Positions 1,390 through 18,562 of a stretch of 56,876 nucleotides of DNA are shown here, piece by piece; position 1 is the stretch's first letter, and the number at the start of each line of letters is the position of its first letter. Below the pieces are notes generated by a model. The model saw nothing but the letters and a program-made list of their open reading frames with translations, did not search any database and was not told the origin of the DNA. The position numbers and the translations under genes are program-made. Source of the DNA: a virus (Duplodnaviria > Caudoviricetes); IMG/VR virus record IMGVR_UViG_3300022179_001846, positions 1 to 56,876 of that record; one strand, 5' to 3'.

Positions 1390-1587
1390 TCACTCGACCG
1401 TGCGAAAACAATGCCAGAGGGCGTACTCGTCGACGTAGGCCTCGGCATCGAAGGTGCCGCGCGGCTGCGTCAGGGCCATGAACAGCGGCAACAGCAGCGC
1501 CAAATCGCTGCGCGTAGTGACCATTTCAGGCTCGAACGTGTAGGCCTTGCCGCCGATGTGAAAGTGCAGGTCGCTAACGGCTCTCAT
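1390..1587 (-). CDS. Hypothetical protein
   Basis: 65-aa ORF tightly packed in the operon. Confidence 0.55.
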   Translation of the reverse strand: MRAVSDLHFHIGGKAYTFEPEMVTTRSDLALLLPLFMALTQPRGTFDAEAYVDEYALWHCFRTVE

Positions 1588-1594
1588 CTTCGGT

Positions 1595-2167
1595 CTACCC
1601 CTTCGAAGTGTACGGTACCCACTGATGCGCCCATGGTTTCATGCACATGACCCGCGTCGTGATGATGCCGTCTCGTTGAATATCTTCGACTTCGATATGC
1701 GTGTGGTGCCCCGGCACATGCCGGGTGTCGGGTAAATTGAAAGTCTGCGCATCGGCGTCGTAGCCGTAGTCTTTGCCGATTACGCTGTACACTTTCGCGT
1801 CGTTCGCAATCGAAAGGGCGCGGCCGTCCAGCGGATATAGCACGGCGTTGGCGTACCTCGTGATGTTTCCGACGCGGCCCTCCGCCCTGTTGGCGGCCGC
1901 CACAATGTATGGCTCCCACTTTAGCGCCATGCCTCCCTTGAATTCCTCATATTGCACCTTGTCTCTCAGATCGGGGAGCTGGAAGGTCAACCCTCCAGCG
2001 CAGGCGGTGCCCCCCAGCGCAATGAACAATTCAGGGTACTCATAGATGTCCCGCTCGCTGCCATCGCAAGGGAGCATCTTCCCCCTTGAAGCCTCCTCAG
2101 TGTGCGCCGCGGCAAGCAGCGGCACCATAGCAGCGGCTGATGAAAGCAAAAACGCGCGCCTATTCAT
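1595..2167 (-). CDS. Tail-collar-domain protein (two collar-like repeats) with twin-arginine-like leader
   Basis: MNRRAFLLSSAAA leader; LPCDG...YPELF..LGG..AGGLTFQLPDLR and PLDGRALSI...VYSVIGKDYG...TFNLPDTR. Confidence 0.7.
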   Translation of the reverse strand: MNRRAFLLSSAAAMVPLLAAAHTEEASRGKMLPCDGSERDIYEYPELFIALGGTACAGGLTFQLPDLRDKVQYEEFKGGMALKWEPYIVAAANRAEGRVGNITRYANAVLYPLDGRALSIANDAKVYSVIGKDYGYDADAQTFNLPDTRHVPGHHTHIEVEDIQRDGIITTRVMCMKPWAHQWVPYTSKG

Positions 2168-2792
2168 CTTCGGTCTTTCCCTTCGTCGCCTGCAGCAGGA
2201 TGGTTTTCAACTGATCCCTCTGTTCGGGGTCGAGCGCCAGCACGTCGATCCGCGTCGCCTGCATCTCGATGGCGCCGCCGTCCTTGCCGGTCACCTCGGT
2301 GATGACCTTGTCGCCGTAGACCCGTGGCAGCACCTTGCCGAGGAGCCACTTGCGCGTGTCGATGCGCAGCCGCGACCGCATGATGTGCTCCATGTCGGGC
2401 ACCAGCTTGCCCTCCTCGTTCACCACGAAGTCGCCGCGCCTGTCGCGCGCGATCTCGTCGAGGTCGTCGGCCCAGCCGAGGGCCATGAGGTGCCGGGCAC
2501 GTGCGTAGGCGTCAGCGAAACCTTGATGATTGTCAAGCACCCAAGTGTAGACCGTCTGCCTCGCGATCCCGATGTCCTTGCACACGTTCTTCAGCGTTTC
2601 CCCTTCCGCGAGGCGCCTGCAGATGTCGGCCGCAACTTCAGCCGAGTACGTGTCTTCCGGGCGCCCATTGCGGCCGCGCTTCCGAAGCCCTTGATCACGA
2701 GGAAACCCCAGAGGCCGAGCCACACCGGCCACATCAGCGGCAGGAACAGGATCAGCCCCAGCGTCGGCAGAGCGAGCATTACGGCGAGCCAT
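2160..2792 (-). CDS. terS: Terminase small subunit (Sf6 gp1-like)
   Basis: GRP..YSAEVAADICRRLAEGETL...RLRIDTRKWLLGKVLPRVYGDKVITEVTGKDGGAI resembles Sf6-type TerS; start at 2792 is uncertain. Confidence 0.88.
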   Translation of the reverse strand: MARRNARSADAGADPVPAADVAGVARPLGFPRDQGLRKRGRNGRPEDTYSAEVAADICRRLAEGETLKNVCKDIGIARQTVYTWVLDNHQGFADAYARARHLMALGWADDLDEIARDRRGDFVVNEEGKLVPDMEHIMRSRLRIDTRKWLLGKVLPRVYGDKVITEVTGKDGGAIEMQATRIDVLALDPEQRDQLKTILLQATKGKTEDE

Positions 2793-2799
2793 CGCCAGA

Positions 2800-2991
2800 T
2801 CACGCCTTCGCCTTGAGCAGCTCAAGCATGGCGACGACCGAACGCGGGACGGGCGTCTCGCCGGCAAGCCACCGATACACCGTGCGGCCGCTGACGCCCG
2901 CAAGGATTGCCAGCTCGCTGTTGAGGATGTCCATCTCGTCCAGCAATCGGTTGAGGTACCGCGGGGAGAGGTCGGTTGCGATCTCAGTCAT
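2800..2991 (-). CDS. XRE/Cro-like HTH protein
   Basis: NSELAILAGVSGRTVYRWLAGETPVP. Confidence 0.8.
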   Translation of the reverse strand: MTEIATDLSPRYLNRLLDEMDILNSELAILAGVSGRTVYRWLAGETPVPRSVVAMLELLKAKA

Positions 2992-3016
2992 GCTGACACT
3001 CTACGCCAAAACGACA

Positions 3017-3046
3017 AAGAGGGCCAGCCCTTCGGCTGGCCCTCTT
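3017..3046 (-). terminator. Intrinsic terminator (possibly bidirectional)
   Basis: 13-bp perfect stem AAGAGGGCCAGCC-CTTC-GGCTGGCCCTCTT with a T-rich run on the minus strand, downstream of 3063..3347. Confidence 0.8.
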
Positions 3047-3062
3047 CATCGGCGGCAATTTC

Positions 3063-3347
3063 CTAGGCTGCGAGGCGCTGGTTGGCACGGGCCGCGACCG
3101 TGATGCGGGTCGCGGTCGAGGTCTTGGTCGCCTCGGCGAGCTGGGCCTCGGTCAGGTACGTCTTGACCGTCGCGGTGTCGAGGCGGCTGGTCTCGTAGGT
3201 CGAGATCTTGAGAGCGAACTTGTCGCCCGCGATCTCGGTCGCGCCGAGGGCGAGGAGCTTCGCCTTGAGGTCGTCCACGGTCTTCTGCAGCGCCTTGAGC
3301 TGGGCGGTCGCGACGGCGTACTGGTCTACAAACTTGCTGGTTGTCAT
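3063..3347 (-). CDS. Hypothetical early protein
   Basis: 94 aa; has its own promoter/RBS module and terminator; strong GC3 codon bias. Confidence 0.8.
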   Translation of the reverse strand: MTTSKFVDQYAVATAQLKALQKTVDDLKAKLLALGATEIAGDKFALKISTYETSRLDTATVKTYLTEAQLAEATKTSTATRITVAARANQRLAA

Positions 3348-3400
3348 GATCTATCTCCTATTCGATGAACCCTTATACGGCCAACTTATCCACATGTCAA
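3345..3400 (-). promoter_or_regulatory. sigma70 promoter plus repeated RBS module
   Basis: TTGACA-17-TATAAG then CATCGAATAGGAGATAGATCATG. Confidence 0.75.
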
Positions 3401-3597
3401 ACTGTCAATCGGCTTCTCTTCCTCGACGGGTATCGGACGATCACCCCGTCGAACGGCACGTGGCGGTAGGTTCGCCGCCATTTCATGCTGGACACTACGT
3501 GCTTCCACGTGCCGTGCGCGGCTGCGATTGTGCCGTAGGGCCGCGCGTCGGCCAAGATCGCGCGCACCTCGTCGTCACTGAAGACCCTGCGTTTCAT
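3397..3597 (-). CDS. Stand-alone small HTH (HNH C-terminal-type DNA-binding module)
   Basis: FSDDEVRAILADARPYGTIAAAHG...MKWRRTYRHV. Confidence 0.65.
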   Translation of the reverse strand: MKRRVFSDDEVRAILADARPYGTIAAAHGTWKHVVSSMKWRRTYRHVPFDGVIVRYPSRKRSRLTV

Positions 3598-4088
3598 GAC
3601 GCCCCTCTCTGCAGCAATGCCGTCAGCTCGACCTTGTGCCGCTCCTTCATCGCCCGCACTTCAGCCCGCAAGGTTTCGAACGCCGACTGCGGCGCTACCA
3701 AATTGCGGGTGGCGTGCTCATGCGTGATCCGCTGCTTGATCTGGCGGACCACGTTCAGGCTGACACCGTGCCGGAGAGCGATCTCCCGTGCCGGCGAGGG
3801 GTCGAGGAAGATCTCCCTCACTGTTGCAGCGTCGGCTCCACCGCCGCGAGCGCCGCGGGGGACCTCCCCCTCATACGGAACGTGCGCGTACAGGCGCCGG
3901 GTCTTGATCTGGGCGACCATCTGGTACGAAACCCCGTACTCCTTGGCGATCACATCGTAAGCCCGGGCGTCGGCCAGCAGCGCCTGCACGACTTCGGGCG
4001 GCATCTTCTGCCGGCGCAGGGCCGCGATATCGCCGGCCTCCATGACTTCCCGCGCGCCGGGGGTGCGGGCAATGATCCAAGGGTGCAT
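3594..4088 (-). CDS. Protein with tandem small HTH repeats
   Basis: VQALLADARAYDVIAKEYGVSYQMVAQIKTRRLYAHV and VREIFLDPSPAREIALRHGVSLNVVRQIKQRITHEHA. Confidence 0.7.
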   Translation of the reverse strand: MHPWIIARTPGAREVMEAGDIAALRRQKMPPEVVQALLADARAYDVIAKEYGVSYQMVAQIKTRRLYAHVPYEGEVPRGARGGGADAATVREIFLDPSPAREIALRHGVSLNVVRQIKQRITHEHATRNLVAPQSAFETLRAEVRAMKERHKVELTALLQRGAS

Positions 4089-4398
4089 GTTACTTCATCC
4101 TCCACGCAGAAAGAGACGGACGGACTGACCAGACTGGTTTTCATCAACATTCAGTCAATAAACCAAACGATAATAACGACAAGAGCAGGCGGCGGCTATA
4201 CGCGTATTATATTATTTAATTTCTTCTCACGTTATTTACAGAGTTGAGTTAGACCGGAAGCCCCGGCACCCGGAAAACGCCGGTTTCATTGGGTTTCTCT
4301 ATAGGGGTCACAATTCCAGACTGTCGGTCTGCACCCCGGCGTGCTTGACAAATTGTCAAACCCCGGGGTAAAACCGTCTCCTCAGACAGGAGCCCGCC
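4089..4398. promoter_or_regulatory. Divergent control region, AT-rich; possible replication origin
   Basis: Largest non-coding gap, at the strand switch; AT-rich tract at 4205-4240; palindrome TTGACA-AAT-TGTCAA (4345-4359) with candidate -10 TAAAAC. Confidence 0.6.
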
Positions 4399-13367: not shown

Positions 13368-13399
13368 TGGGGGCGGCCGCAAGCCGCCCCCATTTCTTT
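13368..13399 (+). terminator. Intrinsic terminator
   Basis: TGGGGGCGGC-CGCAA-GCCGCCCCCA followed by TTTCTTT. Confidence 0.75.
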
Positions 13400-13409
13400 G
13401 GAGAATAGA

Positions 13410-16274
13410 ATGGCATTGATCCTGTCCCTTGATTACGAGACTTCCGCGCGCCTCAACCTGACTGAGGTCGGCGCCTACCGCTACGCCCAGAGCGCCAAGA
13501 TCATGTGCGCCGGCTACGCGATCTACGAAGAGAACACGTTCGAGCCCGCGATGGTGAAAGTGTGGCGCGCTTGGAAGGGCGAGCCGATGCCGGCTGACCT
13601 GCTCGCGGCGCTGTCCGACGAGCGCGTCAGGAAGTTCGCGTGGAACGCCCAGTTCGAGCGCCTGATCACGCTGCACGCCGCGGGCCTCGCGGTGCCGCAG
13701 GAGCAGTGGTTCTGCACCGCCGCCCGCGCCCGCGCCTCAGCCTACCCCGGCAAGCTCGACCTGTGCGCGAAGGCGTTGGCGATCCCGCAGAAGAAGGATC
13801 TGGCGGGCGGCAAGCTGATGAAGAAGCTGTCGACCGAGGGCACCGGCACCGAGGAGGAGTACGAGCGCGTCCTCGAATACTGCCTGCAGGATGTCGTCGT
13901 CGAGGCGACCATCGGCATGGTCGTCCGCGACCTGACTGCCGAGGAGTGGAAGGATTACCACGTCTGCGAGCGCATGAACGACAGGGGCATTCCCATCGAC
14001 GTCGAGCTGGCGCGCGCCGCGCAGAAGTACGCCGAGGTCGAGGCCGCCGAAATCGCCAAGGAGCTGGCGGCTGCGACGAACGGCGAAATCACCAGCGCCA
14101 AGCAATTCGCCCGCATCAAGAAGTGGGTCGCCGTGAGGGCTCCCGAGATTGAGGAGCAGTTCACCGACGAGGAGACGGGCAAGTTCTCGCTCGACAGGTC
14201 GGCTCGCACGGCCATCTTCGAGAGCGACCTGCAGATCAGTGAAGAGGTCCGCGAGGTTCTGGAGCTGATCGACGACGCCGGGCGCGCGAGCACGGCCAAG
14301 TACGCCGCCATCGAGAACCGCACCGACACCGACGGCCGGTTGCGCGGCGCGTACCTGTTCAACGGTGCGGGGCAGACTGGCAGATACTCCGCCATGGGAC
14401 TTCAGCCGCATAATCTGGTGCGCGACAAGCTCGACAACAGCGGCGACGTGATCGAGGCCGTGCTCGACGGGGCCTCTGCCGACGAGGTCACGACGCTCTC
14501 CGGGCAGAACATGCTGACGACGCTGGCGCGCATGCTGCGCCCGACCATCGTCGCGGAGAACGGCAACGCGCTGGTCTGGGCCGACTACTCGGCCGTCGAG
14601 GCGCGCGCCCTGCCGTGGCTCTCGGGGACGCCGGACGCGGAACCCTTGCTCGACCTCTTCCGCAAGAACGAGGACGTCTACAAGCACGCGGCGTCGGGCA
14701 TCTACGGCGTGCCCGCCGACAAGGTAGACAAGGCGCAGAGGCAAATCGGAAAAATTTCTACCCTCGCTCTAGGATTCGGCGGGGGAGCAAACGCTTTCCG
14801 CAAGATGGCGCGGGCCTACGGCCTGAAGATCACCGACACCGCCGCAGAAGAAATCAAGGTCGCGTGGCGTCTGGCGAACCCGTGGGCGCGGACTTTCTGG
14901 GCCGAGCTGGAGGGTGCCGCGATCCGCGCCGCGCGCCACCCCGGCGTCGTCGCAGAGGCGGGGCGCATCAAGTACCTGATGCACGGTGACATGCTCTACG
15001 CTCTGCTGCCCTGCGGGCGCCTGATTGCCTACCCGGAAGCCGAGGTGGTGATGGTCGACGGCCAGAGGGGGCCGCAGCCGCGCCTGTCGGCGCTGAAAGC
15101 CTCAATGCACCCCAAGAAGGGTGAGACGGCGTGGCCCCGCGTGACCCTCTATGGTGGTTTGCTGGCCGAGAACTGCCTCGCCGGTGATACGGAAGTGCTG
15201 ACGATCCACGGATGGCTCCCTCTGACCGCCGTGGGGGGTCTGCCTGTCTGGGACGGCGAGGAGTTTGTGCTCCACGACGGTCTGGTGGCTAAAGGTTCGC
15301 GGCCTGTCGGCGCGCTGGACGGCGTCCGCATGACCGCCGATCATAGCGTATTGACACAGGAAGGATGGAAGAATGCCTCGGCCCTTGAAGGACATATCCG
15401 GGCAGCAGTTCGGCTTCCTTACGACAATGAAGTGTGCAGGCTCGCGCAACGGGAAGCGCCTGTGGCTGACGCGCTGCATCTGCGGGGCCGAGAAAATTCT
15501 TGTTGGCGCCGAACTTACGAAAGGGCGCGTGCGTTCTTGCGGCTGCAAGAAGGGGGAGTTGCTTGGCGAGGCGCGGCGTACGCACGGCATGTCGCTGCAT
15601 CCTGCTTTCGCAGTCTGGAGTTCTATGCTGGCGCGGTGTCAGCAGCCTTCTCACCGGGTGTGGCAAAATTACGGAGGGCGCGGCATCACTGTGTGCCCTC
15701 AATGGCAAAAGTTCGAGACGTTCTGGGCCGACATGGGGCCGACGTATCAAAGCGGGTTGTCGCTGGAGCGGGTAGACAACGCGCAGGGGTATGGGCCAGC
15801 GAATTGCCGCTGGGCTACGCGAGCGGAGCAGGCGCGGAACACCCGGCGCTCCCGGTTCATCGACACGCCTTGGGGGCGCATGACAGTGGCGGGCGCAGCG
15901 GAACGGTCGGGCATCGGGGTGACGACGTTGCTGTACCGTTTGGGGCGTGGGAACCCGCTGTTCACGAAGCCGTCTACGACATTCTGAATTGCGGCCCTCG
16001 ACAGAGGTTTGTTGTGCGCGGCCATTCAGGGCCCTTCATCGTACACAACTGCACGCAGGCATTCTGCGCCTCGCTGCTGCGCGCCGCCGTGCGCCGCCTC
16101 GACGAGGCCGGGTGGCCCGTCGTCATGCACACGCACGACGAGGTGCTCGTCGAGGTGCATGAAGGCGAGATCGACGACGCCAAGGCGGCGCTGCAGGAGG
16201 CGATGCTGACGAACGAGTGGCCTGATTTGCCGCTTGCCGCTGAACCGGAGTACGGCTACAGCTACGACAAGTAG
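13410..16274 (+). CDS. polA: DNA polymerase family A (intein-containing)
   Basis: Exo motifs LDYET, AWNAQFE, YCLQDV; polymerase motifs TGRYS, ADYSAVEAR, RQIGKISTLALGFG, HTHDE. Confidence 0.95.
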   Translation: MALILSLDYETSARLNLTEVGAYRYAQSAKIMCAGYAIYEENTFEPAMVKVWRAWKGEPMPADLLAALSDERVRKFAWNAQFERLITLHAAGLAVPQEQWFCTAARARASAYPGKLDLCAKALAIPQKKDLAGGKLMKKLSTEGTGTEEEYERVLEYCLQDVVVEATIGMVVRDLTAEEWKDYHVCERMNDRGIPIDVELARAAQKYAEVEAAEIAKELAAATNGEITSAKQFARIKKWVAVRAPEIEEQFTDEETGKFSLDRSARTAIFESDLQISEEVREVLELIDDAGRASTAKYAAIENRTDTDGRLRGAYLFNGAGQTGRYSAMGLQPHNLVRDKLDNSGDVIEAVLDGASADEVTTLSGQNMLTTLARMLRPTIVAENGNALVWADYSAVEARALPWLSGTPDAEPLLDLFRKNEDVYKHAASGIYGVPADKVDKAQRQIGKISTLALGFGGGANAFRKMARAYGLKITDTAAEEIKVAWRLANPWARTFWAELEGAAIRAARHPGVVAEAGRIKYLMHGDMLYALLPCGRLIAYPEAEVVMVDGQRGPQPRLSALKASMHPKKGETAWPRVTLYGGLLAENCLAGDTEVLTIHGWLPLTAVGGLPVWDGEEFVLHDGLVAKGSRPVGALDGVRMTADHSVLTQEGWKNASALEGHIRAAVRLPYDNEVCRLAQREAPVADALHLRGRENSCWRRTYERARAFLRLQEGGVAWRGAAYARHVAASCFRSLEFYAGAVSAAFSPGVAKLRRARHHCVPSMAKVRDVLGRHGADVSKRVVAGAGRQRAGVWASELPLGYASGAGAEHPALPVHRHALGAHDSGGRSGTVGHRGDDVAVPFGAWEPAVHEAVYDILNCGPRQRFVVRGHSGPFIVHNCTQAFCASLLRAAVRRLDEAGWPVVMHTHDEVLVEVHEGEIDDAKAALQEAMLTNEWPDLPLAAEPEYGYSYDK
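15174..16049 (+). mobile_element. Intein (292 aa) in PolA
   Basis: LAEN|CLAGDTEVLT (block A), TADH (block B), VYDILN (block F), FIVHN|C (block G, Cys+1); removal restores LAENCTQA. Confidence 0.93.
15373..15987 (+). CDS. HNH homing endonuclease nested in the +1 frame inside the intein
   Basis: DISGQQFGFLT, RCICG, SCGC, THGMS, MLARC, YGGRGITVCPQW..FETFWADMG, LERVDNAQGYGPANCRWAT..EQARN; RBS AGGAAGGA upstream. Confidence 0.88.
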   Translation: MPRPLKDISGQQFGFLTTMKCAGSRNGKRLWLTRCICGAEKILVGAELTKGRVRSCGCKKGELLGEARRTHGMSLHPAFAVWSSMLARCQQPSHRVWQNYGGRGITVCPQWQKFETFWADMGPTYQSGLSLERVDNAQGYGPANCRWATRAEQARNTRRSRFIDTPWGRMTVAGAAERSGIGVTTLLYRLGRGNPLFTKPSTTF

Positions 16275-16282
16275 AGGTCGAT

Positions 16283-18562
16283 ATGGAATTGGATAATTTT
16301 ATCGAGCACGTCTTCGGTGACGTGCCCGACGACGAAATCGTCGGCATCGTCCAGCGCGGCAAGGATAACCGTGGCTGGCTGACGACACCCTACAAGCAGG
16401 GCCGCACGAAGCTGCGCCCCGACGCCGCGAGCTACTACTGCATCTCGACCCTGAAGAGGCCGCCCGCGGGCGAGCCGCTGCGGCGGCTGATGCCGAACAT
16501 GGCCCGGTGCCGCGTCATCGTCCTCGACGACATTGGGACCAAGATTGATGCCGAGAAGTTCAAGGGAAAGGCCGGGCCGCACTACGTGATGGAGACGTCG
16601 GCGGGCAACTTCCAGTACGGCCTGCTCTTCAACGGGACGGTGGAAGAGGCGCAGGTGCTGATCGAGGCCCTGATCGAGGCCGGCTACAGTGACCCCGGCG
16701 CGCGCGACGTTCACCGCCTTGTGCGCCTCCCCGGCTCCCTGAACTACAAGAGCAACCCGCCCTTCGTCGCGCGTCTCGTCGAAGAGGACTGGGAGCAGCC
16801 CGCGTGGACGTTCAAGGAGCTGTGCGAGGAGTTTGGCTTGACACCGCGCGAGCCGACGAGCCTGCGCTCGACCAAGCGCGCATGGAGCGGCGACACGGGC
16901 GGTGACGTGATCCTGAAGTGGATCACCGAGAAGGGTATGGCCCTCTCGGAGCCCAACTCCGACGGCTGGATGTTCATCGAGTGCCCGTGGGCCGACGAGC
17001 ACAGCGACGGCCGGCGCGACGCCAAGTGGCAGGTCGGCAACGGCACGACGGGCGCCTACCACTGCTTCCACGGATCCTGCCAGCACCGGACGCAGGGCGA
17101 CTTCCTGCTCTGGTGTGAGGCGAACGGCGCCCCCGACTTCGAGGCCGAAGCCGTCGCGCAGATCACTACCATCGGCCAGAAGCTGGCGACGATACCGCGG
17201 GGTGCCTTTGCGCTGCCGGGCCCTTTAAATCCCCCGCCGAGGGGGGCCGCTGCGGGGGATATCCTTACTGGGCTCGTGCTGACGTATGCCGGGAGAGTGA
17301 AGAAAGAGCAGCTGCCGTCGCTCGAAGTGACGGCAAGGGCCGGCGTCCCAAAGGACATACAGAAAGTCACCATCGAAAACGTGCAGCATGTCGTCGCGGA
17401 ATGCGGCTTCTCCGTTCTAAGAAATCACATGACCGGCGAAGTCGAACTGTCCCATGCGGACGAAGCCTTCAATGCGATTGAAAACCCCTCGGAGCGCGCC
17501 CTGATGACCCGTGAATTCCTGATATCCCTCGCCAATCGTGCAGGCATCTCGCTGCGCGCCACGCTCGACGAGCTGCTGACCACACTGTCGTCGAACAACG
17601 GGTACCACCCCGTGTTCGACTGGATTACCTCGAAGCCTTGGGACGGCGTCGACCGCTTCCGCGCGCTGGCCGACACGGTCGATGCGAAGAACCCGCAGTG
17701 GCGCGACATCGTCATCTTCCGCGCGTCCATTCAGGCCATTGTGGCGTGGACCAACTGGGAGCGGGAGACGCCTGTCAGCGTTCCCCATGTGGTGGTTTTC
17801 GTCGGCCCGCAGGGCTGCGGCAAGTCATCGTGGATCGGCTCGCTGCTGCCCGCGGCGTGGCGCCTGCTGGAGCAGAGCGCGAACCTCGGGCACGCCAGCA
17901 GCAAGGACGACGAGCGCAGGCTGACAAGCTCCCCGCTCGTCGAGATGGCCGAGCTGGAGGCCATCATCAGCCGCATCGAGGCGGGGCACCTGAAGAGCTT
18001 CCTCTCGCGCCCCGTCGACAAGATCCGCCTCCCCTACGACCGGCTCATCACCACGCGCCCCCGCGTGACCTCGTTCTGGGCCAGCGTGAACGACGGACAG
18101 TTCCTCAACGACCCGACGGGCGCACGGCGCTTTTGGCCTGTCGAGGTCACGCGCTGCAACGCTTTCCACGGCATCGACATGCAGCAGTACTGGGCCCAGA
18201 TGCTCCACTACTTCCGGCAGGGCGAGGGCTGGAACCTGACGCGCGAGGAGATACAGCTCCACAGCGCCATCGTCGAGGAACACCGCGTCGAGAGCCCCGC
18301 CGAGGGCCGCCTGCAGGAGCTGTACGCGCGCAAGAAGCACGTCGCGGCGAAGGACTGGACCTTTGCCACGGCGAGCGACATCGGGCGGTACTACGGGCTG
18401 CCGGACAACTACGGGACATCGCGCGCCGTCGGCAGCGTGTTGCGCAAGATGTTCGGCGAGAGGATCAGCAACAACGAACGGAAAGGATGGAAAGTGCCGA
18501 TAAAGCAGACTGAACTGAGGGCGGGTTTCTCCGCCTACATTCCCCCGGAGGACGTGTCGTGA
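16283..18562 (+). CDS. Primase-helicase (RepB-like primase, Zn-binding domain, VirE/VapE-like P-loop)
   Basis: VLDDIG, METSAGNFQ, RLPG; CPWADEH...CFHGSC; GPQGCGKS, RLPYDR, FLNDPTGARRFWPV. Confidence 0.9.
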   Translation: MELDNFIEHVFGDVPDDEIVGIVQRGKDNRGWLTTPYKQGRTKLRPDAASYYCISTLKRPPAGEPLRRLMPNMARCRVIVLDDIGTKIDAEKFKGKAGPHYVMETSAGNFQYGLLFNGTVEEAQVLIEALIEAGYSDPGARDVHRLVRLPGSLNYKSNPPFVARLVEEDWEQPAWTFKELCEEFGLTPREPTSLRSTKRAWSGDTGGDVILKWITEKGMALSEPNSDGWMFIECPWADEHSDGRRDAKWQVGNGTTGAYHCFHGSCQHRTQGDFLLWCEANGAPDFEAEAVAQITTIGQKLATIPRGAFALPGPLNPPPRGAAAGDILTGLVLTYAGRVKKEQLPSLEVTARAGVPKDIQKVTIENVQHVVAECGFSVLRNHMTGEVELSHADEAFNAIENPSERALMTREFLISLANRAGISLRATLDELLTTLSSNNGYHPVFDWITSKPWDGVDRFRALADTVDAKNPQWRDIVIFRASIQAIVAWTNWERETPVSVPHVVVFVGPQGCGKSSWIGSLLPAAWRLLEQSANLGHASSKDDERRLTSSPLVEMAELEAIISRIEAGHLKSFLSRPVDKIRLPYDRLITTRPRVTSFWASVNDGQFLNDPTGARRFWPVEVTRCNAFHGIDMQQYWAQMLHYFRQGEGWNLTREEIQLHSAIVEEHRVESPAEGRLQELYARKKHVAAKDWTFATASDIGRYYGLPDNYGTSRAVGSVLRKMFGERISNNERKGWKVPIKQTELRAGFSAYIPPEDVS

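What the first reader, a model, noticed from the sequence alone, without database searches (positions are those of the whole stretch)
15174..16049. Dual-coding intein: homing endonuclease overprinted in the +1 frame inside a PolA intein
Seen: the 292-aa intein has intact splicing blocks (C1, TADH, VYDILN, HN|C), but its central ~200 aa has no recognisable domain. The same DNA read in +1 (15373-15987) is a complete 204-aa HNH endonuclease (YGGRGITVC, ERVDN..GY..NCRWAT..EQARN). The intein frame has no stop across the 615 nt and must stay open, because PolA motif C (HTHDE) lies downstream. Known: intein homing endonucleases are normally in-frame domains of the intein polypeptide. Inference: this is a different architecture, in which a separately translated nuclease mobilises the intein and the polymerase precursor carries a passenger linker that is spliced out.
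Basis: partly seen in the sequence, partly recalled or inferred. Interest (0 to 1): 0.92.

Follow-up and report, generated by a model that had tools for sequence, protein, structure and literature searches.

The report
Polymerase intein with overprinted nuclease gene
A self-splicing protein insert (intein) in this phage's DNA polymerase carries a separate nuclease gene in a shifted reading frame of the same DNA; the layout is real and conserved in many phages, but inteins of this general kind have been reported before.

Summary
The family-A DNA polymerase gene (13398..16274) holds a 292-codon class-1 intein (15174..16049). All its splicing residues are present. In the model, residues 1-88 and 251-292 form a confident Hint fold and residues 89-250 are disordered.

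The +1 frame (15373..15987) encodes a confidently folded 204-aa nuclease-like protein (PHROG 374, E 1e-52). It has its own ATG, and an AGGA lies 7 nt upstream.

The layout is not an assembly error or chance:
- The same +1 offset occurs in 83 of 84 sources examined.
- Frame 0 is open across the nuclease ORF in 77 of 78 unique loci, against about 6.5 stops expected from synonymous shuffles.
- Cultured Shewanella, Caulobacter and Hamiltonella APSE phages share the layout.
- In the overlap, dN/dS is about 0.10 in the nuclease frame and about 2.0 in the intein frame.
- Metagenome contigs carry alleles that lack exactly the 876 nt.
- One relative is a split ("fractured") version, and another has a partly deleted nuclease.

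The nuclease lacks the canonical first His (Arg133). Its weak best structural match is PacI.

The general architecture is already published (dnaX and actinophage inteins, 2025-26). This scan has also noted the same family before on other DNA. I rate it a new member of a known kind.

The parts
13398..15173 (+). N-extein of the family-A DNA polymerase (exonuclease and N-terminal polymerase part), ending ...YGGLLAEN
   Evidence: ORF list. Pfam DNA_pol_A E 1.9e-18. Aligns with intein-less polymerases up to ...EN.
15174..16049 (+). Class-1 intein, 292 codons, in frame with the polymerase (C1 ... HN, followed by +1 Cys)
   Evidence: Invariant C1, T54, H57, D269, H291, N292 in 59 sequences. The AF2 model's top Foldseek hits are mini-inteins. 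Absent from intein-less alleles.
15174..15437 (+). Hint N-lobe (intein residues 1-88, blocks A and B); its last ~22 codons overlap the start of the nuclease ORF
   Evidence: Block mean pLDDT 92-97 for residues 1-80 and 66 for 81-90. Pairwise identity is 52% for residues 1-66.
15438..15923 (+). Frame-0 linker (intein residues 89-250): kept open but with no conserved or foldable protein
   Evidence: pLDDT < 50 for residues 89-250. The whole overlapped part (residues 67-271) has 27% pairwise identity against 48% for the +1 frame. Frame-0 dN/dS is about 2.0. No stops, against 2.68 expected.
15924..16049 (+). Hint C-lobe (intein residues 251-292, blocks F and G: VYDILN ... VHN)
   Evidence: Block mean pLDDT 77 for residues 251-260 and 94-96 for 261-292. 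Pairwise identity is 68% for residues 272-292.
15373..15987 (+). Nested nuclease gene in the +1 frame (204 aa). Three parts: an N-terminal CxC...CxC beta domain, a central domain resembling a PacI-type His-Me finger (about residues 73-160), and a C-terminal helix-turn-helix. The TGA stop lies across the Leu-Asn codons of intein block F.
   Evidence: PHROG 374 E 1.2e-52. AF2 mean pLDDT 91. PacI Z 6.6. I-HmuI HNH motif E 0.067 and LCoR HTH E 0.037. dN/dS about 0.10 in relatives.
15358..15365 (+). Shine-Dalgarno-like AGGAAGGA, ending 7 nt before the nuclease ATG; it is made of the frame-0 codons for Q-E-G of the conserved block-B tail (..LTQEGWKNA)
   Evidence: Read from the sequence. An SD-like 4-mer lies at -17..-4 in 42 of 78 relatives, against 12.5% of other ATG/GTG in the same loci. 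Start contexts are listed.
16050..16274 (+). C-extein, beginning with the +1 Cys (CTQA...) and containing polymerase motif C (HTHDE at 16128..16142)
   Evidence: Aligns with intein-less polymerases from TQA onward.

Best explanation
This is a mobile intein of a phage family-A DNA polymerase. Its homing nuclease is a separate gene overprinted in the +1 frame, not an in-frame domain.

The polymerase is translated as one 958-aa precursor. A bipartite Hint domain (intein residues 1-88 and 251-292) folds around a disordered linker of about 160 residues. It then splices out the whole 292 residues and joins ...LAEN to CTQA..., restoring the polymerase.

The same mRNA stretch is read from an internal ATG (15373) behind an AGGA box. 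This gives a 204-aa three-domain DNA-binding nuclease. It is a His-Me finger that lacks the usual general-base His, and its best structural match is PacI. The nuclease presumably cuts or nicks intein-less polA alleles near the ...GAG AAC TGC ACG... site, so that repair copies the intein in.

Selection therefore acts on the amino acids of the +1 frame. In frame 0 it acts only against stop codons and frameshifts, plus the Hint strands at both ends of the overlap.

Shown here: the anatomy, its conservation, the frame-specific selection, the Hint fold (predicted) and the precise presence/absence polymorphism. Inferred: splicing, separate translation, nuclease activity, target site and homing.
For: - **Layout in relatives.** The same +1 offset, with a spanning open frame, is found in 83 of 84 sources. 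Frame 0 is open in 77 of 78 unique nuclease ORFs, although synonymous shuffles give a mean of 6.45 stops and a median P(open) of 0.0005. This holds in loci of 46-50% GC as well.
- **Cultured phages.** Independently sequenced cultured phages share the layout: Shewanella SFCi1, Caulobacter GB2A/RW/RLK/KcrB and Hamiltonella APSE-1, where the +1 ORF 2527..3177 of L085 lies inside P45.
- **Splicing residues and fold.** The splicing residues are invariant. The AF2 model has block mean pLDDT of 92-97 for residues 1-80 and 94-96 for 261-292, and below 50 for 89-250. The top Foldseek PDB hits are mini-inteins: Ssp DnaB E 2.8e-4, then Npu DnaE, Msm DnaB and Mtu RecA, all at probability 1.00.
- **Selection by frame.** In the central overlap, the nuclease frame has a median dN/dS of 0.10 and frame 0 has 2.04. 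Sixty percent of differences fall at nuclease codon position 3 (13 close pairs). Pairwise amino-acid identity is 48% in +1 against 27% in frame 0.
- **Own start signal.** Start codons are ATG 58, GTG 19 and TTG 1. An SD-like 4-mer is present in 42 of 78, against a 12.5% background.
- **Precise insertion.** Intein-less polymerases read ..ENV-TQA... Contigs from three runs join 15170 to 16047, skipping exactly 876 nt.
- **Life-cycle stages in relatives.** L003 has a 336-nt in-frame deletion of the nuclease 5' part. L068 is a split-intein 'fractured' form with the nuclease free-standing.
- **Nuclease identity.** PHROG 374 E 1.2e-52. AF2 mean pLDDT 91. The best structural match is PacI at Z 6.6, rmsd 2.1-2.5 over 74-76 residues. 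PacI is an active nuclease that lacks the catalytic His and uses a Tyr in the omega loop (PMC5714182 passages). Tyr140 is invariant here.
Against: - No expression, splicing or cleavage data exist. No RNA run was available.
- Pfam and NCBIfam recognise neither the Hint nor the HNH domain.
- The residue that aligns with the catalytic His of I-HmuI is an invariant Arg, so nuclease activity is not assured. The PacI match (Z 6.6) is below the level the tool calls safe, and Foldseek alone gave nothing at E <= 0.001.
- For this window alone, frame-0 openness is only P = 0.041.
- The 80 relatives were the best tblastn matches to a frame-0 query, which may favour open frames.
- The dN/dS rests on 13 non-independent pairs, and NG86 is biased in overlapping genes.
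- SD-like boxes are absent from 36 of 78 chosen starts, and some of my start choices may be wrong.
- No sigma-70-like promoter lies in 14900..16400, so translation would have to start internally on the polymerase mRNA.
- The intein-less contigs differ from the window in their flanks (2 to 9 other letters in the flank pieces of 43-104 nt). They are therefore relatives, not the same strain. The full-length contig may be the source assembly.
Confidence: 0.8

Rival explanations
1. The intein is real, but the nested protein is not (or is no longer) its homing nuclease. It could be a His-less DNA-binding protein with another role, such as regulation, target-site binding only, or help for another nuclease. 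It could also be a selfish free-standing gene that merely shelters in a tolerant linker.
For: An invariant Arg stands where the HNH general-base His should be. There are no Pfam or NCBIfam HNH hits. Relatives of the protein are common as free-standing phage genes: 1172 phage records match. The PacI match is only Z 6.6.
Against: The intein-borne copies are closer to each other than to free-standing ones. In one search the top 17 rows all lie under polymerase genes at 52-55% identity, and the next rows are at or below 41%. The position and +1 offset are fixed in 83 of 84 sources. Purifying selection acts on the ORF. Presence/absence of the whole 876 nt is precise. PacI shows that a His-less member of this fold can cleave DNA (PMC5714182 passages).
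Confidence: 0.13
2. The nuclease ORF in this particular phage is a relic on its way to loss, and the element is now a vertically inherited mini-intein with a junk linker.
For: The closest relative, L003 (80% identical to the window over the aligned intein plus flanking extein), has already lost 336 nt of the ORF. Decay is the expected end of the homing cycle. The window-only openness statistic is weak.
Against: The window's ORF is full length and carries every invariant residue of 58 relatives. It folds confidently and keeps its start and AGGA box. Intein-less alleles, which are possible targets, are present in the same kind of samples.
Confidence: 0.05
3. Artefact or chance. Either two compensating indel errors hide an ordinary in-frame HNH intein, or a GC-rich alternative frame is open by accident and the polymerase is really broken or split.
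For: The record is a metagenome assembly. GC is 63-65%, and P(open) is 0.041 for the window alone.
Against: The same offset is seen in 83 of 84 sources, including cultured phages and loci of 46-50% GC where P(open) is below 0.001. The laid contigs show no inserted or deleted letters. Only 1 of 78 loci is truly split (L068).
Confidence: 0.01
4. The insert is removed at the RNA level (a group I intron carrying an HNH ORF) rather than by protein splicing.
For: HNH ORFs are common in phage group I introns, including polymerase genes (abstract of PMC3428280 in the listing).
Against: No Rfam intron family matches at E <= 1 in 14900..16400. The intein catalytic residues and Hint fold are conserved. 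Strong selection keeps frame 0 open, which an intron would not need.
Confidence: 0.01

Closest known systems
Actinobacteriophage 'non-canonical' inteins with an endonuclease VII-like homing endonuclease in frame 3 of the intein (Gosselin, Arsenault, Gogarten, bioRxiv 10.1101/2025.01.02.630785; I read the abstract, sections 8 and 15, and passages)
   Same: A same-strand nuclease ORF sits in another frame between the splicing blocks. The intein frame is open and structureless there. The authors explain it as invasion of a mini-intein by a free-standing nuclease gene.
   Different: The nuclease family differs (Endo VII-like there, His-less and resembling PacI here). The frame offset, hosts (Actinobacteria there) and exteins also differ. 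In what I read, that survey lists HNH only as an in-frame type.
Cyanobacterial dnaX intein with an out-of-frame LAGLIDADG endonuclease (Phillips, DeSimone, Gogarten, bioRxiv 10.64898/2026.09.14.751524; I read the abstract and section 17; that text credits Gorbalenya 1998)
   Same: An overlapping nuclease ORF has low dN/dS while the overlapped intein frame has raised dN/dS. Full, mini and empty alleles coexist.
   Different: That is a cellular gene with a LAGLIDADG nuclease and a +2 ORF. Here it is a phage polymerase with a +1 ORF of another nuclease superfamily.
ShiLan domain: a hidden out-of-frame HNH in a mycobacteriophage methylase insertion (Arsenault et al., Genes 2025, PMC11855218; I read the abstract and section 19)
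   Same: An out-of-frame HNH ORF lies inside an insertion that stays open in the host frame.
   Different: No splicing domain was detectable there, so that insert is thought to remain in the protein. No RBS was found there. Here a complete Hint domain flanks the ORF and an SD-like box precedes it.
[quoted passage not shown] 2009, PMC2677866; I read passages)
   Same: A free-standing nuclease gene sits at the endonuclease position of an intein, and its 3' end overlaps the downstream intein part. Relative L068 has exactly this layout.
   Different: In the window, frame 0 has no stop and needs no restart, so the intein is contiguous (cis-splicing). The nucleases there are GIY-YIG and Vsr-like.
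Hamiltonella phage APSE-1 P45 DNA polymerase intein with nested CDS P46 (GenBank AF157835 / NC_000935). The intein is mentioned in PMC7313666 (passage). The original description, van der Wilk 1999, is not held and I did not read it.
   Same: It is a homologous element. The nuclease is 54% identical, it is in the +1 frame, frame 0 is open, and it sits in the same polymerase motif.
   Different: The insertion point is three residues upstream (YGGKS|C...HN|CEN). The databases annotate only the C-terminal 140 aa of the 216-aa ORF. No paper I could search describes the two-frame design.
PacI restriction endonuclease (PDB 3m7k / 3ldy)
   Same: It is the best structural match to residues 73-162 of the nested protein (Z 6.6). 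Both lack the catalytic His of the His-Me finger, and both are small, Cys-rich proteins with an invariant Tyr after the first strand.
   Different: Identity over the aligned part is 20%, and the Z score is in the range the tool warns may reflect only a common arrangement. PacI is a restriction enzyme, not a homing enzyme. Equivalence of Tyr140 to the PacI tyrosine was not tested.

Membership tests
Class-1 intein (Hint domain) | Cys/Ser at position 1, and a Cys/Ser/Thr as first residue of the C-extein | tested here: met
   Cys at 15174-15176 and Cys at 16050-16052. C1 is invariant in 59 of 59 sequences.
Class-1 intein (Hint domain) | Block B TxxH, block F Asp, block G His-Asn at the C-terminus | tested here: met
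   T54, H57, D269, H291 and N292 are invariant in alignment A3.
Class-1 intein (Hint domain) | Hint fold | tested here: met
   In the AF2 model, block mean pLDDT is 92-97 for residues 1-80 and 94-96 for 261-292. The top Foldseek hits are mini-intein structures at probability 1.00, best E 2.8e-4. Pfam itself gave no hit.
Class-1 intein (Hint domain) | In-frame insertion at a conserved host-protein site, absent from homologous alleles | tested here: met
   Intein-less polymerases read ..ENV-TQA... Contigs skip exactly 876 nt.
Class-1 intein (Hint domain) | Protein splicing activity | not testable with these tools
   Needs expression of the precursor.
Intein with an out-of-frame (overprinted) homing endonuclease | A complete nuclease ORF on the same strand, in another frame, between blocks B and F, with the intein frame open across it | tested here: met
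   +1 in 83 of 84 sources, and frame 0 open in 77 of 78 unique loci.
Intein with an out-of-frame (overprinted) homing endonuclease | Purifying selection on the nuclease frame and not on the overlapped intein frame | tested here: met
   dN/dS 0.10 against 2.04 (13 pairs). Identity 48% against 27%.
Intein with an out-of-frame (overprinted) homing endonuclease | Separate translation of the nuclease | tested here: inconclusive
   There is an ATG with AGGA 7 nt upstream. SD-like boxes occur in 42 of 78 against 12.5% background. No expression data were available.
HNH / His-Me finger nuclease | Beta-beta-alpha-metal fold | tested here: inconclusive
   PacI is the top match but only at Z 6.6. Foldseek gave nothing at E <= 0.001. 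The profile hit to the I-HmuI HNH motif is E 0.067. The PHROG 374 'HNH endonuclease' hit is E 1.2e-52.
HNH / His-Me finger nuclease | Catalytic general-base His (the first H of HNH) | tested here: not met
   The aligned position is Arg133, invariant in 58 sequences. The protein is therefore not a canonical HNH. A PacI-type Tyr substitute (candidate Tyr140) is possible but was not tested.
HNH / His-Me finger nuclease | Pfam HNH-clan model match | tested here: not met
   No Pfam family at E <= 1. No NCBIfam family at E <= 0.01.
HNH / His-Me finger nuclease | DNA cleavage or nicking | not testable with these tools
   Needs purified protein and an intein-less target.
[quoted passage not shown] | A stop codon ends the N-part and a new start begins the C-part | tested here: not met
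   The window has no stop in frame 0. The feature is met in relative L068 only.
Group I intron with an HNH ORF | Group I intron RNA structure | tested here: not met
   No Rfam intron family at E <= 1 in 14900..16400. The only row is a sub-threshold THF riboswitch match at E 0.56.

The most novel reading that the evidence does not exclude
This is one old and still mobile lineage in which a His-less, PacI-type (possibly tyrosine-dependent) His-Me finger protein serves as a homing endonuclease, a role not documented for this nuclease class. The conserved block-B codons of the intein double as the nuclease's ribosome-binding site and start, and block F supplies its stop, so intein and nuclease are physically locked together. 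The same lineage shows contiguous, decaying and split (fractured) forms, and at least four insertion points within one polymerase motif. That would give a natural series for how free-standing nucleases and mini-inteins merge, how split inteins arise, and how target sites shift.
Probability: 0.4. Interest if true: 0.6.

Novelty: new member of a known kind. Interest (0 to 1): 0.45.

Why it matters
The window is a clean example of a very large natural family, with at least 441 IMG/VR loci and several cultured phages. It illustrates the 'splicing domain first, nuclease invades later' model of intein origin. The nuclease is still a separate gene, and selection on the host frame is reduced to avoiding stops.

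The family offers culturable systems (Caulobacter, Shewanella and APSE phages) in which to test several things: internal translation initiation inside a polymerase mRNA, homing by a His-less nuclease, and the step from a contiguous to a split intein.

There is a practical point too. Gene callers annotate these polymerases as one long protein and usually miss or truncate the nested gene. APSE-1 P46 is an example.

The concept itself is not new. It was published for other inteins in 2025-26, and this scan has repeatedly noted the same family on other DNA.

Tried and rejected
- **Family searches.** Pfam and NCBIfam gave no hit for the intein frame or the +1 ORF.
- **Fold searches for the nuclease model.** Foldseek against PDB gave nothing at E <= 0.001; PacI 3ldy_A was rank 3 at E 0.7. 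The VIA-align searches put PacI first, but only at Z 6.6.
- **Promoters and terminators.** No promoter-like or terminator-like sites were found in 14900..16400.
- **Rfam.** The only row was a sub-threshold THF riboswitch match (E 0.56), which I treat as chance.
- **Sequencing runs.** No RNA holder was listed for the stretch, so nothing can be said about expression.
- **Laid contigs.** Runs X2, X3 and X4 covered only parts of the stretch. I draw nothing from the uncovered parts.
- **Fused forms.** 23 longer proteins matched. Two carry a PolA Pfam domain (P0007, P0012). Both have the N-intein joined in frame to an N-terminally shortened nuclease and then run on in the nuclease frame. I read them as shifted or broken alleles or assembly errors, not canonical in-frame inteins. 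The tool warns that finding none is weak evidence.
- **Junction patterns.** My first junction regexes missed the N or C junction in several loci. A profile-based pass resolved most, but it merged two inteins in some polymerases. One regex row (L013, 'CGRIK') is a false pick; one search shows HN|CTQAI there.
- **Literature.** Searches found no paper describing a +1-frame HNH inside a family-A polymerase intein. The first description of APSE-1 (van der Wilk 1999) is not held, and supplements were closed. Either could contain such a remark.
- **Not run.** I did not run a phylogeny of intein against extein. I did not use complex prediction or the protein atlas.

Full report
**What is there.** The window is a complete IMG/VR virus record of 56,876 bases (CheckV 100%) with a single copy of the nested gene. 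ORF 13398..16274 (958 aa) is a family-A DNA polymerase (Pfam DNA_pol_A, E 1.9e-18). Between ...YGGLLAEN and CTQAF... lie 292 in-frame codons (15174..16049). They begin with Cys, carry TADH and VYDILN, and end with His-Asn before a Cys. Polymerase motif C (HTHDE, 16128..16142) is downstream. In the +1 frame, 15373..15987 is a 204-codon ORF. The described features are all present at the stated coordinates.

**Which frame encodes what.** The +1 product matches PHROG 374 'HNH endonuclease' at E 1.2e-52. The frame-0 product gives only weak PHROG hits over residues 25-71. Pfam and NCBIfam recognise neither.

I predicted both structures with alignments of relatives (A3 with 59 inteins, A4 with 58 nested ORFs).
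- The intein model has block mean pLDDT of 92-97 for residues 1-80 and 94-96 for 261-292, and below 50 for residues 89-250. Its best PDB matches are mini-intein splicing domains: Ssp DnaB (E 2.8e-4), Npu DnaE, Msm DnaB and Mtu RecA, all at probability 1.00.
- The +1 product folds confidently throughout (mean pLDDT 91).

So the intein is a bipartite Hint domain around an unstructured spacer of about 160 residues, and the same DNA encodes a folded protein in +1. About 22 codons at the 5' end and about 20 at the 3' end of the overlap belong to both folded proteins. The linker is therefore not purely a passenger.

**Not an error and not chance.** Shewanella phage SFCi1, a cultured phage, has a homologous intein in its annotated 1100-aa polymerase. 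It carries a 224-aa ORF in the +1 frame, and frame 0 is open. So do Caulobacter phages GB2A, RW, RLK and KcrB, and the Hamiltonella APSE phages. In APSE-1 the nested +1 ORF is 216 aa (L085 2527..3177). GenBank annotates its last 140 aa as P46, which RefSeq names 'HNH endonuclease'.

Of these, 441 encode a relative, and the best 80 were kept. With the window, L001, L003 and L004, that made 84 sources.
- All 84 have a full-length or, in L003, partial match to the nested-protein profile.
- In 83 of 84, another frame spans that ORF, and the offset is +1 every time.
- After removing duplicates there are 78 unique ORFs, and frame 0 is open across 77 of them.
- Synonymous-codon shuffles, 2000 per locus, give a mean of 6.45 stops and a median P(open) of 0.0005. 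The largest P is 0.236, for the truncated L003.
- The window alone gives 0 stops observed against 2.68 expected, P = 0.041, with 6 stops in the third frame.
- Loci of 46-50% GC, such as L004, L009, L054 and L084, gave no open shuffle out of 2000.

One caveat applies. The 80 loci are the best tblastn matches to a frame-0 query, which could favour open frames.

**Selection.** Over 58 sequences (1653 pairs), mean pairwise amino-acid identity in frame 0 is 52% for intein residues 1-66, 27% for the overlapped residues 67-271 and 68% for residues 272-292. It is 48% for the +1 protein.

Thirteen pairs are 72-99.5% identical in nucleotides. In these, 60% of differences fall at codon position 3 of the +1 frame (330/259/874). 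In the central overlap, NG86 dN/dS has a median of 0.10 in the +1 frame (11 pairs with defined dS) and 2.04 in frame 0 (13 pairs). The pairs are few and not independent, and NG86 is biased in overlapping genes. The asymmetry is nonetheless what is expected if only the +1 amino acids are selected.

**Start and stop signals.** In the window the ATG is preceded by AGGAAGGA, ending 7 nt upstream. This box is built from the frame-0 codons of the conserved block-B tail (..LTQEGWKNA). The TGA stop spans the Leu-Asn codons of block F.

Across the relatives:
- The chosen starts are ATG 58, GTG 19 and TTG 1.
- An AGGA, GGAG or GAGG lies at -17..-4 in 42 of 78, against 2049 of 16411 (12.5%) of other ATG/GTG in the same loci.
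- The ORF starts a median of 67 codons into the intein, and stops a median of 11 codons before its end.
- Two recurrent start contexts are visible.

No sigma-70-like promoter is found nearby.

**Mobility and life cycle.** Intein-less polymerases (MW202483 and Ralstonia phage RpY1) read ..ENV-TQA.. exactly where the window has EN-[292 aa]-CTQA.

I laid Logan contigs of four runs on 15100..16150.
- Contigs in three runs (X1 depth 2.5; X3 depth 9.9, a 2569-nt contig; X4 depth 5.5) join 15170 to 16047 and skip exactly 876 nt. There is a 6-letter ambiguity that includes the exact intein boundaries.
- A further X4 contig joins across with 13 other letters, giving an ..EN-A-TQA.. allele.
- These contigs differ from the window in their flanks, so they are relatives.
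- The full-length X1 contig (depth 35.9, no differences, no gaps) may be the source assembly and is not independent support.

The closest relative, L003, is 80% identical to the window over the aligned intein plus flanking extein. It has an in-frame 336-nt deletion that removes the 5' part of the nested ORF and leaves a 180-aa intein.

L068 is the split form. Its polymerase N-part plus N-intein ends at a stop. The nuclease follows as a free-standing gene with its own start. An ATG that overlaps the nuclease's stop then begins the C-intein plus polymerase C-part. This is the 'fractured gene' layout of Dassa et al. 2009 (passages).

Full, decaying, split and empty alleles are thus all seen in this family.

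**What the nested protein is.** A profile of 58 relatives hits the HNH motif of I-HmuI only weakly (E 0.067). That alignment places an invariant Arg (R133) where I-HmuI has its His. It also hits an HTH (LCoR, E 0.037) at residues 171-201.

The best structural match to residues 73-162 is the restriction enzyme PacI: Z 6.6, rmsd 2.1-2.5 over 74-76 residues, 20% identity. According to the His-Me finger classification paper (passages), PacI lacks the catalytic His and uses a Tyr in the omega loop. Tyr140, seven residues after R133, is invariant here, as are N144, W147, N156 and a CxC...CxC set.

I therefore call the protein a His-less nuclease-like His-Me finger that resembles PacI. This is an inference from a modest Z score, and the protein does not meet the canonical HNH definition.

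**Comparison with what is known.** Inteins whose endonuclease lies in another frame or on the other strand have been reported in three places.
- The cyanobacterial dnaX intein (credited to Gorbalenya 1998 in the text I read). The Phillips et al. 2026 preprint shows the same frame-specific dN/dS pattern.
- Actinobacteriophage inteins, in the Gosselin et al. 2025 preprint. These have an Endo VII-like nuclease in frame 3, or antisense LAGLIDADG and Vsr-like nucleases.
- An out-of-frame HNH in a non-splicing methylase insert (Arsenault et al. 2025).

The APSE polymerase intein is mentioned in the literature. None of my five searches found a description of this +1 nuclease in a family-A polymerase intein.

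Earlier notes of this scan already report the same family on other DNA: 116 notes in at least 95 genomes. One of them led me to the dnaX preprint.

**Verdict.** The element is real, is under selection in both senses, and is probably mobile. It is a new member of an already published kind rather than a new architecture. Splicing, internal translation, nuclease activity and homing remain inferred.

Noticed in passing
L068:1483-4212: A split ('fractured') version of the same element. The polymerase N-part plus N-intein ends at a stop (1483..3282). The nuclease is free-standing (3269..3907). The C-intein plus polymerase C-part (3904..4212) starts at an ATG overlapping the nuclease stop, and its C-intein ends in Ser-Asn instead of His-Asn.
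   Followed up: partly
L003:3001-3540: The closest relative of the window (80% identical over the aligned intein plus flanking extein) has an in-frame 336-nt deletion that removes the 5' part of the nested ORF. This leaves a 180-aa intein and a 92-codon remnant ORF, which looks like nuclease decay.
   Followed up: partly
L005-L084 (junction strings): Homologous intein-plus-nuclease units sit at several insertion points within one polymerase motif (YGGKLxENxTQA). The counts in 77 unique loci are: EN|C-xQ 54 (55 with L013), L|C-EN 10, K|C-xEN 8 and ENx|C-Q 2. Two more lie in another context (..QIS|C...HN|CG..).
   Followed up: partly
L007, L062, L065, L067, L070, L083 (second profile hits); L007, L057, L058, L062 (merged intein hits): Some polymerase genes seem to carry a second intein upstream. 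In several of them there is also a second, weaker match to the nested-nuclease profile on the same strand.
   Followed up: no
window 15170/16047 (joints): Freshwater, lake and drinking-water metagenome contigs hold intein-less alleles of related polymerases. One type keeps Cys at the +1 position (ENCTQA) and one has Ala (ENATQA). The hexamer AACTGC is repeated at both intein boundaries.
   Followed up: partly
P0007, P0012: Two database proteins have the polymerase N-part and N-intein joined in frame to an N-terminally shortened nuclease, and then continue in the nuclease frame. They may be shifted or broken alleles, or assembly errors.
   Followed up: partly
L085:2527-3177 (APSE-1): GenBank and RefSeq annotate only the last 140 codons (P46, 2755..3177) of a 216-codon +1 ORF that starts at a GTG with the same N-terminal motif as the relatives.
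   Followed up: yes
window 16283-18562: A 759-aa ORF starts 9 nt after the polymerase stop. It has no NCBIfam hit. In the intein-less relative MW202483, a gene annotated 'virulence associated protein E' lies two genes downstream of the polymerase, after one hypothetical protein.
   Followed up: no
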